A stretch of DNA of 5,219 bases from a virus. Its lineage: Duplodnaviria > Heunggongvirae > Uroviricota > Caudoviricetes. This document shows, piece after piece, positions 1-5,219 of the stretch (position 1 is its first letter; each line of letters starts with the position of its first letter). The stretch lies in IMG/VR virus record IMGVR_UViG_3300029006_000029. The stretch is one strand, 5' to 3'. The position numbers were made by a program, and so were the translations under genes. The notes under the pieces are model-generated. The model did not search any database. It was not told the origin of the DNA and saw only the letters and a list, made by a program, of their open reading frames with translations.

Positions 1-178
1 GGTTTTTTTATGCGTAATGCACAGCCACATTCAGATTATGGTGGGGCGTGCAGGGCAGCCGAAAGGCTGGCCGGTTTCGGTAGTCACCGGTATTTCCACC
101 CCTGTACGTCTCACCACCCTTATGGTCGTGGAAAGCCTTGGTGGTGAGTTATTTAAACTGACTATCGAGGCTGCCATC

Positions 179-747: not shown

Positions 748-936
748 ATGGAAACGTTATTACCAAACGTTAATACGTCTGAAGGTTGTTTTGATATTGG
801 TGTTCTGCTCAGTAACCGGGAGTTTACTGAAGATGCCATTAAGATGAGAAAATATGAACCTTATCTTCTCAATGATAATTCCATACTTTCCAGAATTGCC
901 CTTCTTGAACTTGGTATTATCGGAGAACAGCAGTGA
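748..936 (+). CDS. hypothetical small protein (62 aa)
   Basis: ATG at 748 preceded by GAGGA (736-740) at about 7 nt spacing; starts 10 nt after the Rha stop, co-oriented with the operon. Sequence is visibly AT-rich. No family recognised. Confidence 0.45.
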   Translation: METLLPNVNTSEGCFDIGVLLSNREFTEDAIKMRKYEPYLLNDNSILSRIALLELGIIGEQQ

Positions 937-1121
937 CCTCAGCATTTGCACTGGTGATGACCGTTTTTCTTATAACGGGTGAGCCGCAGAATGTGATTAC
1001 CGGAATTTATGACAGTAAGTCATCCTGCATTCAGGTAAGGGACGAACAAAAAATCCCCGGTGAATGCCTCCCGTTAAAAAAAGTATCGCTGTACCTGAAT
1101 AACGAAATACCGGCTGGATAA
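933..1121 (+). CDS. hypothetical small protein with hydrophobic N-terminus (possible signal peptide or membrane anchor), 62 aa
   Basis: GTG start at 933 overlaps the upstream stop (GTGA, 933-936), a classic translational-coupling arrangement; GGAG at 922-925. N-terminus MTSAFALVMTVFLITG is hydrophobic; two Cys in the tail (SSCIQV...PGEC). An alternative start is the in-frame ATG at 957. No family recognised. Confidence 0.4.
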   Translation: MTSAFALVMTVFLITGEPQNVITGIYDSKSSCIQVRDEQKIPGECLPLKKVSLYLNNEIPAG

Positions 1122-1213
1122 CCCACCAGCCATATTAACGCCATACCAACGGATTAAAAATGCCAGCAATGGCAGGGATTCGTACAACCTTAAAATAGTA
1201 ATGAGGTTTATCA

Positions 1214-3757
1214 ATGAGCACTGATAAAGAAACTTTTGCACTATATTGCGAAGCAAAAAATGACAAGGTCAGAAAACGCCTTGGGATTAAAGGTGGTTTT
1301 TACTGGACTACAGCAAAAAAATTATCTGTTGCCATCTCCCGCTGCATTACCGCAATGGATGATAATGATTATGACGAGGACGACTTTAAAAAACCTGTTC
1401 GCGTCCATTTACCCGTTGTGAATGACCTTCCTCCAGAAGGCGTGTTTGATACTGAATTCTGCAACCGTTACGAAAAAGGCGGGGAAGATGGTATCACAAT
1501 GATATTTATAGCTCCTTCCCCTTCAGCTCAGGACAAACCTGCCAGCACTGACAATACCAGCAGCGAAGCTGTTACAGGTGTCAGCCGTGACTGCGATGAA
1601 CAAAGTGACTCTCAGACAGAGAACGCAGATAAAAGCGAATCCCCGGACAGCAACGATGACTGCCCTGAATGTGAAATCCCCGTCTCCACCCTGAGTCTTA
1701 CCCATCGCTTCCTGCACCTCTACTTCTTTGGTCAGGAGTTCGACGAGAAATACAAACATCACGCCACACCAGAACAACGCAAGGACGTGATCCGCATCGA
1801 AATGGATATGGAAGATGGAAACATACAGAGCCTGCTTACTGCAGTACGTTCGCATCCTGAGCTGGATAAGCTGACAAACCATCATCTTGGAAGACTGGCG
1901 CATTCGGTGGAAAAGGCATTCACTCACGCAACAACACGCCGTATCAGCCCGGCAGAATTCGACAAGTTCATTTCCACCTGGATGAAGACTGACTACCTTG
2001 ATCAGGGGCTGTTGACAAAAGAGTGGGCAAAGGGAAATTGCGTATCTGAAATCAATCGCACCCCGTCCGGCGCTAATGCTGGCGGAGGAATTCTTACCGA
2101 TCGCGGTGAAGGTTTTGTCCACGATGATGCGTCAGTGGAACGTGACGTTGCCGCTGGCGTTCTGGCCCGTTCAATGGACATCGATATTTACAATCCACAT
2201 CCGGCACACGCCAAACGCATTGAAGAAATCGTTTCAGAGAATAAGCCGCCCTTTTCTGTTTTTCGTGACAAATTCATCGCCATGCCTGGTCACCTGGATT
2301 ATTCCCGCGCGATAGTAGTTGCGTCCGTGAAAGAAGCACCAATTGGTATCGAGGCTACTCCCCACCGTGTTACCGAATATCTGAACAAAGTACTGACCGA
2401 AACCGATCATGCCAACCCTGATCCGGAAATCGTGGATATTGCCTGCGGTCGCTCCTCTGCCCCTATCCCGCAGCGTGTAACAAAAGAAGGAAAACAGGAT
2501 GATGAAGAAAAACCGCAGCCATCTGGCGCAATGGCAGATGAACAGGCAACGACTGAAGCAGTGGAACCGGATACAACTGAACATAATCAGGACACGCAGT
2601 CGATGGATGCTCAGCCACAGATAAATTCTGTTGATGCGAAATATCAGAAACTGCGTGCAGAACTCTATGAAGCCAGGAAAAACATTCCACCCAAAAATCC
2701 TGTCGATGCAGATAAATTACTGGCTGCTTCTCACGGAGAATTTGTTGAAGGGATTAGCGACCCGAATGATCCAAAATGGGTGAAGGGGATTGAAACCCGC
2801 GATTCGGTGAACCATAACCAGCAAGAAACGGAACAGAAAGGCCATAAAGCGGAACAACACAGTCCAAATGCGCAACAAAACGAGCCAGAAACGAAACAGC
2901 CTGAACCAGTAGCGCAACAGGAACCGGAAAAAGTCTGCACAGCCTGCGGTCAGATCGGCGGCGGCAACTGTCCTGACTGTGGCGCGGTGATGGGCGACGC
3001 AACATACCATGAGACATTCAACGAAGAAAGCCAGGATGAAGCCCGGGAAAAAGATCCGGAGGAAATGGAAAGTGCCGGACTCCCGAACAAGGAGTGCACC
3101 GAAGGCGATCAACATGCCAATGGCAATAATGAAACAGGCGAGACAGCAAATCTCTTAATTAAGGTGAACGGTCATCGTGAAATCACATCCACCAGCAGGT
3201 TGTGGCACCATCTGATGATTGACCTTGAAACAATGGGCAAAAATCCTGACGCACCAATAGCCTCAATAGGCGCTGTATTTTTCGATCCACAAACCGGAGA
3301 TATGGGACCGGAATTTAGTAAGACTATCGATCTGGAAACTGCTGGCGGAGTCATTGATCGGGACACCATTAAATGGTGGCTTAAGCAATCACGCGAAGCG
3401 CAATCTGCCATTATGACCGATGAAATCCCGTTAGATGATGCACTGTTACAATTGCGGGAATTTATCGACGAAAACTCCGGTGAATTTTATGTTCAGGTCT
3501 GGGGAAATGGAGCCAACTTCGACAACACGATTTTGCGCCGTTCATACGAACGGCAGGGGATCCCCTGCCCGTGGCGTTACTACAACGATCGCGATGTACG
3601 CACAATCGTTGAGCTGGGGAAAGCCATAGACTTCGATGCCAGAACGGCTATTCCATTCGAAGGTGAGCGCCATAATGCACTTGATGACGCCCGTTACCAG
3701 GCAAAATACGTTTCAGTTATCTGGCAAAAACTGATCCCGAGTCAGGCTGATTCTTAA
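1214..3757 (+). CDS. large phage exonuclease, RecE-like (exodeoxyribonuclease VIII-like) N-terminal and central region with a C-terminal DEDDh (DnaQ/RNase T-like) 3'-5' exonuclease domain
   Basis: 847-aa ORF; ATG 1214 with GAGG at 1203-1206. Segments such as [21 protein letters not shown]...SGANAGGG...[50 protein letters not shown] and [13 protein letters not shown] match my unverified recollection of the N-terminal region of Rac RecE. The C-terminal ~190 aa carry DEDDh motifs: MIDLETMG (D at 3221-3223, E at 3227-3229), [12 protein letters not shown] (D at 3521-3523), HNALDDARY (H at 3671-3673, D at 3686-3688). Stop TAA 3755-3757. Confidence 0.9.
3182..3754 (+). other. DEDDh-type 3'-5' exonuclease domain (C-terminal domain of the 1214..3757 ORF)
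   Basis: Exo I D-x-E (DLE in LMIDLETMG), Exo II ([13 protein letters not shown]) and Exo III H-x4-D (HNALDD) occur in canonical order and spacing within about 190 residues. Confidence 0.8.
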
Positions 3758-3768
3758 TGTTCAACTGT

Positions 3769-3800
3769 CGCCGGTTGTGACTGGTATTCTGCAACCGGCG
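3769..3800 (+). repeat. perfect 9-bp GC-rich inverted repeat (CGCCGGTTG / CAACCGGCG) with a 14-nt loop, between the exonuclease gene and xis
   Basis: Read directly: 3769-3777 CGCCGGTTG and 3792-3800 CAACCGGCG are exact reverse complements. No U-tract follows, so it is not a textbook intrinsic terminator. Confidence 0.5.
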
Positions 3801-3829
3801 CTCGTCTAATGTAAGAGATAAAGAAATCG

Positions 3830-4081
3830 ATGAGCGAAGTAATCATGATTGTCTCTCCCGGCAAATGGGTATCCGAAGAGCAGTTAATTGCGCTGAAAGG
3901 AATAAAAAAAGGTACGTTAAAAAAGGCCCGGGAAAAATCGTTTATGGAAGGAAGGGAATATAAGCATGTCGCTCATGACGGTATGCCATGGGATAACAGC
4001 CCATGCTTTTACAACCTGGAAGAAATTGATCGCTGGATTGAGCGCCAGGCATCAGCGAGACCAAGACGTCATCTTACTTGA
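3830..4081 (+). CDS. xis: excisionase-like protein (Xis), 83 aa
   Basis: Small ORF immediately upstream of and co-oriented with the integrase. Product (MSEVIMIVSPGKWVSEEQLIALKGIKKGTLKKAREKSFMEGREYKHVAHDGMPWDNSPCFYNLEEIDRWIERQ...) has the size and basic/aromatic character of phage excisionases. Alternative start ATG at 3845. Stop TGA 4079-4081. Confidence 0.75.
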   Translation: MSEVIMIVSPGKWVSEEQLIALKGIKKGTLKKAREKSFMEGREYKHVAHDGMPWDNSPCFYNLEEIDRWIERQASARPRRHLT

Positions 4082-4115
4082 CTAAAAGCCACACTAACTA
4101 ATGAGAGAAGTTGAA

Positions 4116-5219
4116 ATGAAATATCCGACAGGCGTGGAAAACCATGGAGGGAAATTACGTATCTGGTTTGTTTATAAAGGCGTAAGAGTCAGGGAAAATC
4201 TGGGGGTTCCTGACACAGCAAAAAACAGGCGCGTNNNNNNNNNNCTACGCGCCTCTGTTTGTTACGCAATAAAAACTGGTGTTTTCGACTATGCAAAACA
4301 GTTTCCCTCCTCACGCAATCTGGAAAAATTTGGTGAGGCCCGACAAGATTTAACCATAAAAGAACTGGCTGAAAAATTTCTGGCACTGAAAGAAACTGAA
4401 GTCGCAAAAACATCACTCAACACATACCGTGCCGTCATCAAAAATATCCTGAGCATAATCGGTGAAAAAAATCTTGCCTCATCGATTAATAAAGAAAAAT
4501 TACTGGAGGTTCGTAAAGAGCTACTGACTGGATACCAGATCCCCAAAAGTAACTATATTGTTACACAACCAGGGAGATCGGCTGTAACTGTAAATAATTA
4601 CATGACAAATCTTAACGCCGTGTTCCAGTTTGGTGTTGATAACGGTTACTTGGCAGATAACCCGTTTAAGGGGATCTCGCCATTAAAGGAATCAAGAACC
4701 ATTCCGGATCCTCTTTCGCGGGAGGAATTCATCCGTCTTATCGATGCGTGCAGAAATCAGCAAGCCAAAAATTTATGGTGTGTTTCTGTTTATACTGGCG
4801 TTCGCCCTGGTGAGCTGTGTGCACTTGGATGGGAGGACATAGATCTGAAAAATGGAACAATGATGATCAGGAGAAATTTAGCAAAAGACCGTTTCACGGT
4901 ACCAAAAACACAGGCGGGAACCAATCGGGTCATTCATCTTATTAAGCCAGCAATCGACGCTCTCCGGAGTCAGATGACATTAACGAGACTGAGCAAAGAG
5001 CATATCATTGATGTTCACCTCAGAGAGTATGGCAGAACAGAAAAACAAAAATGCACCTTTGTTTTTCAACCTGAAGTGTCAGCGAGAGTAAAAAATTATG
5101 GTGACCATTTTACCGTTGACTCAATAAGGCAGATGTGGGACGCAGCGATAAAACGTGCCGGACTCCGCCATCGAAAATCATATCAGTCGAGACATACTTA
5201 TGCCTGCTGGTCGCTGACA
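4116..5219 (+). CDS. int: phage integrase, tyrosine recombinase family; 3'-partial (runs off the window end), contains a 10-N run
   Basis: Hand-translated from ATG 4116 (purine-rich GAGAGAAG just upstream; another in-frame ATG at 4101). The frame stays open for 368 codons to 5219, reading through the N-run. N-terminus MKYPTGVENHGGKLRIWFVYKGVRVREN resembles Rac-type IntR as I recall it. Box I motif VYTGVRPGELCAL is present (catalytic Arg codon 4803-4805) and box II begins at SRHTYACWSL at the window edge; the catalytic Tyr lies beyond the window. Absent from the ORF track because there is no in-window stop. Confidence 0.9.
   Translation, partial: MKYPTGVENHGGKLRIWFVYKGVRVRENLGVPDTAKNRRXXXXLRASVCYAIKTGVFDYAKQFPSSRNLEKFGEARQDLTIKELAEKFLALKETEVAKTSLNTYRAVIKNILSIIGEKNLASSINKEKLLEVRKELLTGYQIPKSNYIVTQPGRSAVTVNNYMTNLNAVFQFGVDNGYLADNPFKGISPLKESRTIPDPLSREEFIRLIDACRNQQAKNLWCVSVYTGVRPGELCALGWEDIDLKNGTMMIRRNLAKDRFTVPKTQAGTNRVIHLIKPAIDALRSQMTLTRLSKEHIIDVHLREYGRTEKQKCTFVFQPEVSARVKNYGDHFTVDSIRQMWDAAIKRAGLRHRKSYQSRHTYACWSLT
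4235..4244. other. run of 10 ambiguous bases (N) - assembly gap or masked bases inside the integrase gene
   Basis: Literal nnnnnnnnnn in the sequence. The integrase frame is maintained across it (GTN codon plus three NNN codons), so the run's length is compatible with the true sequence. Confidence 0.95.

What the first reader, a model, noticed from the sequence alone, without database searches (positions are those of the whole stretch)
3758..4115. No annealase (RecT/Bet/Erf-type) gene between the exonuclease and xis-int
In Rac-like and lambda-like early-left operons the exonuclease is normally followed by its single-strand annealing partner before xis-int. Here the exonuclease stop (3757) is only 72 bp from the xis start (3830), and that spacer holds just an inverted repeat. 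The upstream genes in the window (Rha and two 62-aa ORFs) do not look like annealases. This fits the exonuclease not being part of a classical two-component recombination pair.
Basis: partly seen in the sequence, partly recalled or inferred. Interest (0 to 1): 0.5.

Follow-up and report, generated by a model that had tools for sequence, protein, structure and literature searches.

The report
Prophage exonuclease that needs no annealase
The missing annealase is real but ordinary: this prophage's "exonuclease" keeps the front part of RecE but carries a different, 3'-to-5' nuclease domain, and phages with this version never encode an annealase and appear to rely on the host's recombination system instead.

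Summary
The 847-aa exonuclease ORF ends at 3757. An excisionase gene (Pfam DUF1233) starts at 3830. The 72-bp spacer holds only a 9-bp inverted repeat (3769-3777 / 3792-3800). The upstream genes are a Rha-family regulator, DicB and YdfD/DUF1482, not annealases.

The window is the intact equivalent of the E. coli K-12 Qin prophage segment dicB-ydfD-ydfE-intQ. The exonuclease is homologous to RecE over aa 58-649. It then carries a DEDDh (DnaQ/T4 DexA-like, Pfam PF16473) 3'-5' exonuclease domain in place of RecE's PD-(D/E)XK 5'-3' domain.

Across 95 related loci the C-terminal domain predicted the annealase without exception:
- DEDDh domain: 27 of 27 loci with no annealase.
- PD-(D/E)XK domain: 52 of 52 with recT immediately downstream.
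- No nuclease domain: 13 of 13 followed by gam-bet-exo.

DEDDh-type loci are rich in Chi sites. That matches the published class of lambdoid phages with no recombination module that use host RecBCD (Bobay 2013; Zheng 2025). The domain occurs in about 74% of complete E. coli genomes.

The enzyme's actual role has not been tested.

The parts
748..936 (+). dicB, a cell-division inhibitor.
   Evidence: Pfam PF05358 DicB, E = 3.7e-38, full length. It occupies the same position as dicB in K-12 Qin.
933..1121 (+). ydfD homologue (DUF1482). It is the second 62-aa ORF and is not an annealase.
   Evidence: Pfam PF07358, E = 3.5e-15. K-12 ydfD, annotated 'lysis protein', sits in the same place.
1214..3757 (+). 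847-aa YdfE-type exonuclease: a RecE-like N-terminal region fused to a DEDDh 3'-5' exonuclease domain.
   Evidence: Pfam PF06630 (aa 57-196) plus PF16473 (aa 665-837). Close relatives carry PF27430 YdfE_N and PF27432 YdfE_C. PGAP names relatives 'exonuclease' or '3'-5' exonuclease'.
1385..3160 (+). Region homologous to the non-catalytic N-terminal part of Rac RecE (aa 58-649). It includes a CxxC...CxxC motif at aa 575-589 (nt 2936-2980).
   Evidence: BLASTP against K-12 RecE aa 50-591: 56% identity, E = 0. Homology stops where the RecE nuclease domain begins. It is 73% identical to the 682-aa nuclease-less protein of Shigella phage 75/02 Stx. The cysteines are invariant in alignment A1.
3206..3724 (+). 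DEDDh (DnaQ/DexA/Rv2179c-like) 3'-5' exonuclease domain. The motif residues D670, E672, D770, H820 and D825 are all present.
   Evidence: PF16473, E = 1.4e-67. PDB 8KEL/8KEN (227-aa 'Exodeoxyribonuclease', taken to be the T4 DexA of PMC12153337), E = 3.5e-7. Motifs DLE, NFDN and HNALDD located, and dN/dS of 0.12-0.27 against 20 homologues.
3769..3800 (+). Hairpin directly after the exonuclease stop codon (9-bp stem, 14-nt loop, no U-tract). It belongs to the 3' end of the DEDDh cassette.
   Evidence: Inverted repeat I3 and RNA fold. The motif TAATGTTCAAC followed by a hairpin occurs in 27/27 DEDDh loci and 0/68 others. The stem sequence varies while pairing is kept, for example CGCCGGTTG/CAACCGGCG against CGCCAGTTG/CAACTGGCG, and the CGCCGCTAAC/GTTAGCGGCG type.
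3830..4081 (+). Excisionase gene (xis, DUF1233 type).
   Evidence: Pfam PF06806, E = 1.6e-31. Identical protein in phage mEp460.
4116..5219 (+). Tyrosine integrase, running off the window end, with a 10-N assembly gap at 4235-4244.
   Evidence: Pfam PF12167 Arm-DNA-bind_2 and PF00589. The 94%-identical integrase of E. coli strain 48 lies next to rspB, the Qin attachment locus.
1123..1130 (-). Chi site (GCTGGTGG), on the strand opposite to the operon.
   Evidence: the DNA search found 2 Chi sites in the window against 0.17 expected.
3189..3196 (-). Chi site (GCTGGTGG) at the start of the DEDDh-domain coding region.
   Evidence: The same site is present in mEp460 at L002 27009-27016.

Best explanation

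Shown:
- The 'exonuclease' is a full-length YdfE. It shares about 600 N-terminal residues with RecE.
- At the linker before the catalytic domain it carries a self-contained DEDDh 3'-5' exonuclease cassette plus a 3' hairpin, where Rac carries the PD-(D/E)XK 5'-3' nuclease domain plus recT.
- No annealase gene is present here, and none is present in any DEDDh-type relative examined.

Inferred:
- A 3'-5' exonuclease removes the 3' single-stranded tails that RecT/Bet/Erf-type annealases act on. It therefore cannot be the resection partner of an annealase, and none is encoded.
- Phages of this type have no recombination module of their own. They obtain recombination-dependent replication from host RecBCD/RecA, which is why their genomes are enriched in correctly oriented Chi sites.
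- The enzyme most likely works on DNA 3' ends during lytic growth. It may trim 3' overhangs to the blunt ends that RecBCD loads on, or degrade competing DNA, as the T4 homologue DexA does. The conserved RecE-like N-terminal region may target or regulate the nuclease.
For: Domain architecture:
- Pfam PF06630 plus PF16473, with no DUF3799/PD-(D/E)XK domain. Rac RecE has PF06630 plus DUF3799.
- Homology to RecE ends at aa 649 of the window protein and aa 591 of RecE.
- The catalytic DEDDh residues are intact and dN/dS is 0.12-0.27.
- The nearest solved structure is T4 DexA.

Class rule:
- 27/27 DEDDh loci have no RecT/Bet/Erf.
- 52/52 PD-(D/E)XK loci have recT abutting.
- 13/13 nuclease-less loci have gam-bet-exo downstream.

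Cassette swap: L011 and L012 are 97.7% identical through dicB-ydfD-N-terminal region up to position 11193 in both, then diverge into DEDDh plus hairpin versus PD-(D/E)XK plus recT.

Searches for a hidden annealase:
- None in the complete prophage of E. coli strain 48, with a PHROGs scan of its unnamed genes.
- None in 10 loci with precomputed Pfam hits reaching back to Q/RusA.
- None in the complete phage mEp460.
- No Gam homologue in any DEDDh locus.

Chi sites:
- mEp460 has 9, against 1.4 expected.
- The window has 2, against 0.17 expected.
- In de-duplicated upstream regions the density is 0.273/kb (37 of 46 on the strand opposite the exo gene). The RecT class has 0.116/kb and the Bet class 0.035/kb.

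Literature:
- Half of lambdoid genomes lack recombinases and these over-represent Chi (PMC3784561).
- 22% of enterobacterial lambdoids have no Rec module, and DnaQ-type nuclease genes near int are not Rec-module members (PMC12315714).
Against: - The exact protein is not in the contig index, so absence upstream is inferred from relatives that are 92-99% identical only in parts.
- No biochemical data exist for YdfE. Its polarity, its substrate (DNA or RNA; the Pfam family is named after an exoribonuclease) and any link to RecBCD are all inferred.
- The Chi enrichment is only about 2.4-fold over RecT-type loci, and the loci are not phylogenetically independent.
- Annealase families other than RecT/Bet/Erf were excluded only by Pfam and PHROGs annotation, not by fold.
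- The operon is expected to be repressed in a lysogen, so a role for the enzyme in the lysogen is uncertain.
Confidence: 0.75

Rival explanations
1. The exonuclease is not connected with recombination. It is a phage-carried defence or host-takeover nuclease. By analogy with the E. coli DexA homologue 'EcD', it would degrade hydroxymethylcytosine-modified DNA of superinfecting T-even phages, or host DNA. That would explain why it needs no annealase.
For: The DEDDh domain is a sequence homologue of T4 DexA. PMC12153337 reports that an E. coli DexA homologue (HAK9828821.1) cuts 5hmC DNA and protects against T4. The domain also occurs as a stand-alone 183-190-aa gene at the same position, just upstream of xis-int, in other no-Rec-module prophages.
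Against: EcD could not be matched to this subfamily. Its accession was not found in 10 clusters, and no retrieved homologue has Ala at position 78. DexA W152 aligns with Tyr here. The gene lies in an operon expected to be repressed in lysogens, and no significant own promoter was found. The fusion to a RecE-like N-terminal region points to DNA-end transactions.
Confidence: 0.15
2. An annealase exists but is unrecognised. It would be either a novel single-strand annealing protein among the small or hypothetical early genes, or an annealing activity within the 650-aa N-terminal region of the exonuclease.
For: Several early-left ORFs in relatives have no Pfam or PHROG function. The RecE N-terminal region has no known function. 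Its only confidently modelled domain (aa 145-290, pLDDT 85) has no structural relative.
Against: No unknown gene is shared by all DEDDh loci between the repressor gene and the exonuclease gene. The window's small ORFs are DicB and YdfD. The N-terminal region is predicted to be helical or disordered with almost no beta-strand, unlike Rad52/RecT/Erf folds, and gave no annealase match. The same N-terminal region co-occurs with RecT or Bet in the other classes, so it does not replace them.
Confidence: 0.05
3. The arrangement is decay: a Rac-like recE-recT module in a defective prophage lost recT, and the nuclease domain, by deletion or rearrangement.
For: The K-12 Qin copy (ydfE) is a pseudogene truncated by IS2. 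The window itself has a frameshifted rha gene. Some genomes have copies split by IS elements.
Against: The ORF is intact, with catalytic residues conserved and dN/dS of 0.12-0.27. The same architecture is found in 4042 of 5426 E. coli genomes and in complete phage genomes such as mEp460, Tritos and vB_EcoS-640R1. The junction is a clean domain replacement, not a deletion scar.
Confidence: 0.03
4. The exonuclease does take part in recombination, using an annealase supplied in trans by another resident prophage (for example Rac RecT or a lambda-type Bet) or by host RecA/RecFOR.
For: E. coli genomes commonly carry several lambdoid prophages of different classes. There are up to 7 DEDDh copies per genome, and RecT- and Bet-type loci are abundant.
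Against: A 3'-5' polarity is the wrong one for producing annealase substrates (established enzymology of DEDDh nucleases; not tested here). A viable phage cannot depend on a co-resident prophage. The Chi enrichment points to RecBCD rather than to an annealase.
Confidence: 0.07

Closest known systems
E. coli K-12 Qin cryptic prophage dicB-ydfD-ydfE-intQ segment (ydfE pseudogene)
   Same: Same gene order and the same chromosomal neighbourhood (rspB side) in the closest complete relative. DicB and YdfD are homologous. ydfE is the N-terminal fragment of the same gene.
   Different: In K-12, ydfE is cut by IS2E, and xis and the DEDDh domain are missing. Here the gene is full length (847 aa) with xis and int present. 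The window has C4 RNA plus rha where K-12 has ydfABC-dicF.
Rac prophage RecE/RecT (exonuclease VIII plus annealase)
   Same: About 590 residues of N-terminal region are homologous (56% identity overall, and visibly higher in the C-terminal half of that region). [quoted passage not shown]
   Different: RecE's catalytic domain is a PD-(D/E)XK (DUF3799) 5'-3' nuclease and is followed by recT. Here the domain is a DEDDh 3'-5' nuclease and xis follows directly.
T4 DexA (exonuclease A; PDB 8KEL/8KEN) and its E. coli homologue EcD (PMC12153337)
   Same: Same DEDDh family by sequence (E = 3.5e-7), with the same catalytic motifs.
   Different: DexA and EcD are stand-alone proteins of about 190-230 aa. 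Here the domain is fused to a 650-aa RecE-like region. The 5hmC-recognition residues are not clearly conserved (W152 aligns with Tyr). Any relation to EcD itself is unresolved.
'No Rec module / Chi-rich' lambdoid phages (LLS functional type, Zheng et al. 2025, PMC12315714; 'Rec-' lambdoids, Bobay et al. 2013, PMC3784561)
   Same: No annealase, no anti-RecBCD gene, over-represented Chi sites, and a DnaQ-type nuclease gene next to int that is not part of a Rec module.
   Different: LLS has a yfbR-yfdQ-yfdP-type early-left operon. This one has dicB-ydfD, and its DnaQ-type domain is fused to a RecE-like N-terminal region. RecBCD dependence has not been tested for this phage type.
'RecE-2' nuclease-less RecE relatives (for example Shigella phage 75/02 Stx, 682 aa)
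   Same: 73% identity over aa 1-604, and the same position in the operon.
   Different: These have no nuclease domain and are followed by gam-bet-exo (lambda Red type) before xis-int.

Membership tests
RecE/RecT two-component recombinase (Rac type) | PD-(D/E)XK (Pfam DUF3799) 5'-3' exonuclease domain at the C-terminus | tested here: not met
   There is no DUF3799 hit. The C-terminus is PF16473. BLASTP homology to RecE stops at RecE aa 591. RecE itself scores DUF3799 at E = 4e-28.
RecE/RecT two-component recombinase (Rac type) | RecT-family annealase gene adjacent to the exonuclease gene | tested here: not met
   xis starts 72 bp after the stop codon. tblastn with three RecT seeds, Bet and Erf found nothing in the window or in 26 other DEDDh loci.
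RecE/RecT two-component recombinase (Rac type) | RecE N-terminal region (Pfam PF06630 Exonuc_VIII) | tested here: met
   PF06630 E = 3.7e-12 at aa 57-196. Identity to RecE is 56% over 593 aligned columns.
DEDDh / DnaQ-like 3'-5' exonucleases (Pfam PF16473, Rv2179c/DexA-like) | Profile match over the whole domain | tested here: met
   PF16473 E = 1.4e-67, profile positions 1-177 of 177. PDB DexA E = 3.5e-7.
DEDDh / DnaQ-like 3'-5' exonucleases (Pfam PF16473, Rv2179c/DexA-like) | Catalytic residues: D-x-E, D, and H-x4-D | tested here: met
   D670/E672 (DLE), D770 (NFDN) and H820/D825 (HNALDD) are all present. Nearly all lie in columns invariant across 21 homologues (D825 sits in a variable column).
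DEDDh / DnaQ-like 3'-5' exonucleases (Pfam PF16473, Rv2179c/DexA-like) | 3'-5' exonuclease activity, and substrate (DNA or RNA) | not testable with these tools
   Needs enzyme assays. Only homology supports it.
YdfE family (Qin-type prophage exonuclease) | Synteny dicB-ydfD-ydfE-(xis)-int and the YdfE_N/YdfE_C domains | tested here: met
   Synteny with K-12 Qin and with E. coli strain 48. PF27430 and PF27432 are recorded on 823-aa relatives that share the identical DicB. Those two models are not in the local Pfam copy, so they could not be scored on the window protein itself.
'No Rec module, Chi-rich' lambdoid phages (Bobay 2013; Zheng 2025) | No annealase and no anti-RecBCD gene in the phage | tested here: met
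   Met for the window's 5.2 kb and for relatives.
'No Rec module, Chi-rich' lambdoid phages (Bobay 2013; Zheng 2025) | Over-representation of Chi (GCTGGTGG) with a strand bias | tested here: met
   mEp460 has 9 against 1.4 expected, with 7 on the top strand. The window has 2 against 0.17 expected. DEDDh loci have 0.273/kb, against 0.116/kb and 0.035/kb in the other classes.
'No Rec module, Chi-rich' lambdoid phages (Bobay 2013; Zheng 2025) | Growth aided by host RecBCD | not testable with these tools
   Needs plating or burst assays on recB/recC hosts.
HREX / EcD-type anti-phage exonuclease (PMC12153337) | DexA homologue with 5hmC-recognition residues (DexA W152, D169) and loss of the tetramer residue D90 | tested here: inconclusive
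   It is homologous to DexA. In the HMMER alignment W152 aligns with Tyr and D90 aligns with Asp. The D169 region was not aligned. The EcD sequence could not be retrieved.

The most novel reading that the evidence does not exclude
The roughly 600-aa RecE N-terminal region may be an autonomous, exchangeable platform for DNA-end transactions. Lambdoid phages combine it with one of three alternative outputs:
- a 5'-3' PD-(D/E)XK nuclease plus RecT;
- no nuclease of its own, next to Gam-Bet-Exo;
- a 3'-5' DEDDh nuclease with no annealase.

In the third form the enzyme would be a phage-encoded helper of the host RecBCD-Chi pathway. It would trim 3' overhangs on phage DNA ends so that RecBCD can load. 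That would make it a previously unrecognised type of phage recombination function, rather than a stray nuclease.
Probability: 0.15. Interest if true: 0.55.

Novelty: already known. Interest (0 to 1): 0.2.

Why it matters
The result mainly clarifies annotation. Genes of this family are still often labelled 'exodeoxyribonuclease VIII' or 'RecE family', which wrongly implies a RecET recombination module. The C-terminal domain type (DEDDh, PD-(D/E)XK or none) is a simple and, in this sample, perfect predictor of whether a lambdoid prophage carries its own annealase. By extension it predicts whether the prophage can drive relaxed, annealase-mediated mosaicism or depends on host RecBCD and Chi. The protein is present in about three quarters of complete E. 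coli genomes and has never been characterised biochemically, so its real role is a modest open question.

Tried and rejected
- Exact-sequence look-up of the 847-aa protein, to recover the source contig: not on record. The upstream region of the actual source therefore could not be read.
- Literature search 'Rv2179c + prophage': 0 papers.
- Literature search on the RecE N-terminal region: swamped by 'receptor' hits.
- Supplementary tables of PMC12315714: not held.
- Attempt to identify the experimentally tested EcD (HAK9828821.1) among stand-alone E. coli homologues: the accession was not listed in 10 clusters, and none of 10 sequences has Ala78.
- AlphaFold2 of aa 1-649: mean pLDDT 40, unusable.
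- Intrinsic terminator or promoter in the exo-xis spacer: none found.
- Rfam hit for the spacer: none.
- MAFFT alignment of the spacer hairpins does not put the two stem types in register, so no formal covariation count was made.
- Considered and rejected: recT lost by deletion (the junction is a clean domain swap), and the small ORFs as divergent annealases (they are DicB and YdfD).

Full report
**1. What is in the window**

Six-frame ORF listing and Pfam scanning give one co-directional gene string on the + strand:
- a Rha-family regulator, split into ORFs 17-478 and 489-737;
- dicB (748-936; PF05358, E = 3.7e-38);
- a ydfD homologue (933-1121; DUF1482);
- an 847-aa 'exonuclease' (1214-3757);
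- a DUF1233 excisionase (3830-4081);
- a tyrosine integrase, from 4116 to the end of the window.

The stop-to-start distance of 72 bp is exact. So is the inverted repeat in the spacer, 3769-3777 / 3792-3800 (9 bp, perfect). No ORF in the window matches an annealase family.

**2. Which element this is**

The window matches thousands of E. coli chromosomes. The best full-length match is 92% identical, in E. coli strain 48. There the same string ends at the rspB side of the chromosome. That is the Qin prophage locus of K-12, where the order is dicA-ydfABC-dicF-dicB-ydfD-ydfE(pseudogene, cut by IS2E)-intQ-rspB. The window is thus an intact version of the Qin left end, and the 'exonuclease' is a full-length YdfE. 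Viable phages carry the same exo-xis-int arrangement, for example mEp460. The phage search also hit Tritos, HannyBb and vB_EcoS-640R1.

**3. What the exonuclease is**

Pfam finds the RecE N-terminal family PF06630 (aa 57-196) and, at aa 665-837, PF16473, the 'Rv2179c-like 3'-5' exoribonuclease' DEDDh domain (E = 1.4e-67).

BLASTP against Rac RecE aligns aa 58-649 with RecE aa 50-591 (56% identity). Nothing aligns beyond that point, which is where RecE's catalytic PD-(D/E)XK domain (Pfam DUF3799) begins.

The DEDDh signature residues are present: D670/E672, D770 and H820/D825. The domain is under purifying selection, with dN/dS of 0.12-0.27 against 20 homologues.

The only solved relatives found by sequence are PDB 8KEL and 8KEN. 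These are a 227-aa 'Exodeoxyribonuclease', which I take to be the T4 DexA of PMC12153337. The enzyme is therefore a RecE-like N-terminal region fused to a DnaQ/DexA-type 3'-5' nuclease. It is not an exonuclease VIII.

**4. Does the annealase go with the nuclease type?**

I fetched 80 IMG/VR loci that share the RecE-like N-terminal region. I added 10 loci that share the identical DicB and reference loci from Rac, lambda, P22, mEp460 and Shigella phage 75/02 Stx. All were classified by tblastn with domain and annealase seeds. Pfam was used on the cases BLAST left ambiguous. The partition has no exceptions:

| C-terminal domain | Loci | What follows |
|---|---|---|
| DEDDh | 27 of 27 | no RecT, Bet or Erf within up to 10 kb on either side |
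| PD-(D/E)XK (two divergent subtypes) | 52 of 52 | a RecT-family gene immediately downstream |
| No nuclease domain | 13 of 13 | gam-bet-exo of the lambda Red type |

Three further loci are cut by contig ends.

One pair shows the exchange directly. L011 and L012 are 97.7% identical at the DNA level through dicB, ydfD and the N-terminal region, up to position 11193 in both. They then diverge into DEDDh plus hairpin versus PD-(D/E)XK plus recT.

In all 27 DEDDh loci the next gene is an excisionase starting 52-72 bp after the stop codon. At least five unrelated xis/int modules are used.

**5. Could an annealase be hidden elsewhere?**

- PGAP annotation of the complete strain-48 prophage names no annealase from int back to the lysis genes.
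- Precomputed Pfam hits for every gene of 10 further loci, back to Q/RusA, show no RecT, Erf, Rad52, AAA_24 or Gam families.
- PHROGs scans of the unnamed early genes of mEp460 and of strain 48 return replication, regulatory, HNH and unknown families only.
- No unknown gene is common to all DEDDh loci.
- The N-terminal region of the exonuclease was modelled. The whole region is mostly low-confidence. A confident helical domain at aa 145-290 (pLDDT 85) has no structural relatives. Nothing resembles the beta-rich annealase folds. This is weak negative evidence.

The limitation is that the window's own upstream DNA could not be recovered.

**6. How such a phage recombines**

Two papers describe this situation.
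- Bobay et al. 2013 (PMC3784561) found that half of 275 lambdoid genomes lack recombinases and that these over-represent Chi.
- Zheng et al. 2025 (PMC12315714) found that 22% of enterobacterial lambdoids have no Rec module, are Chi-rich and, for phage LLS, grow better with RecBCD. They also noted sporadic DnaQ-type nuclease genes 'very near int' that they do not count as Rec-module genes, and nuclease-less 'RecE-2' proteins.

I tested the Chi prediction:
- mEp460 has 9 Chi sites against 1.4 expected, 7 of them on the top strand.
- The window has 2 against 0.17 expected.
- In de-duplicated regions upstream of the exonuclease gene, DEDDh loci have 0.273 Chi/kb, and every one of the 17 distinct regions has at least one. 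37 of the 46 sites lie on the strand opposite to the exonuclease gene.
- RecT-type loci have 0.116/kb and Bet-type loci 0.035/kb. Random expectation is about 0.03/kb.

This fits the 'no Rec module, use the host' class. The loci are related to one another, and the contrast with RecT-type loci is only about 2.4-fold.

**7. Mechanism**

Shown: the domain swap, the absence of an annealase and of Gam, the Chi enrichment, and the conservation of the catalytic residues.

Inferred from the established enzymology of DEDDh nucleases and of annealase pathways: a 3'-5' exonuclease destroys the 3' tails that annealases need rather than creating them. It is therefore not a resection partner, and the phage relies on RecBCD/RecA.

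The enzyme's own role is open. My preferred reading is processing of DNA 3' ends during lytic growth, for example blunting ends so that RecBCD can load.

A defence or scavenging role like that of DexA/EcD (PMC12153337) is the main rival. Stand-alone 183-190-aa versions of the domain sit at the same place, just upstream of xis-int, in ST64B/LLS-like Salmonella prophages and in some E. coli prophages. So the domain works without the RecE-like region.

**8. The spacer hairpin**

Every DEDDh locus has TAATGTTCAAC followed by a GC-rich hairpin directly after the stop codon, and no locus of the other classes has it (27/27 against 0/68).

The stem sequences differ while keeping their pairing:
- CGCCGGTTG/CAACCGGCG;
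- CGCCAGTTG/CAACTGGCG;
- CGCCGCTAAC/GTTAGCGGCG;
- CGCCGCCCAC/GTGGCGGCG.

There is no U-tract and no terminator call. The single-sequence fold is not exceptional (z = -1.8). It probably marks the 3' boundary of the DEDDh cassette. It may act as an RNA stability or processing element before xis-int, but this is untested.

**9. Verdict**

The case is ordinary:
- The gene family is annotated (PGAP 'exonuclease' or '3'-5' exonuclease'; Pfam YdfE_N, YdfE_C and PF16473).
- The domain is present in 4042 of 5426 complete E. coli genomes, with up to 7 copies per genome.
- Annealase-less lambdoids, including DnaQ-type nucleases next to int, are described in the literature.

The only mildly new element is the exceptionless three-way link between C-terminal domain type and annealase content among RecE-N-terminal proteins. 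Interest is low (0.2). Novelty: already known.

Noticed in passing
window 34-121 (+): There is a strong match to the C4 antisense RNA family (Rfam RF01695, 79.3 bits against a gathering score of 45) just upstream of the Rha/anti-repressor-like gene. This suggests a P1 immI-like RNA-controlled anti-repressor module in the early-left operon, at the place where K-12 Qin has ydfABC-dicF. The long ORF 17-478 and its Pfam 'Phage_ASH' hit (aa 5-64) overlap the RNA and are probably not coding there. The likely rha start is the ATG at 179.
   Followed up: partly
window 464 (ORFs 17-478 and 489-737): The Rha-family gene is split by a 1-nt insertion (an extra T at 464) relative to E. coli strain 48, where it is a single 284-aa CDS. 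This is either a real pseudogene or a sequencing error in a draft assembly.
   Followed up: yes
window 4235-4244: A run of 10 N lies inside the integrase gene. It is an assembly gap and shows that the window comes from a draft or scaffolded sequence.
   Followed up: no
window 1111-1132 and 3189-3196: Two Chi sites (GCTGGTGG on the - strand) occur in 5.2 kb, against 0.17 expected. The first lies inside a hairpin just after the ydfD stop codon.
   Followed up: partly
L011 and L012 (IMG/VR), junction at 11193 in both: These two prophages are 97.7% identical through dicB-ydfD and the RecE-like N-terminal region. They switch at the same nucleotide to DEDDh plus hairpin in one and PD-(D/E)XK plus recT in the other. 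This is a clean example of an intragenic module exchange at a domain linker.
   Followed up: yes
L003 (Shigella phage 75/02 Stx) 6001-9810, and 13 IMG/VR loci: A 682-aa RecE-N-terminal protein with no nuclease domain sits directly upstream of gam-bet-exo. In the record bet is annotated 'RecT' and the 682-aa protein 'exodeoxyribonuclease VIII'; both labels are misleading.
   Followed up: partly
[not shown]
   Followed up: yes
L099/L100 (Salmonella) 5001-5570; L101 (E. coli) 2576-3127: Stand-alone 183-189-aa versions of the same DEDDh domain (58-70% identical) are also encoded immediately upstream of xis-int. In Salmonella the gene lies after a yfdP-yfdQ-type early-left operon and a dATP/dGTP pyrophosphohydrolase-like gene. 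The position next to xis-int is conserved independently of the RecE-like fusion.
   Followed up: partly
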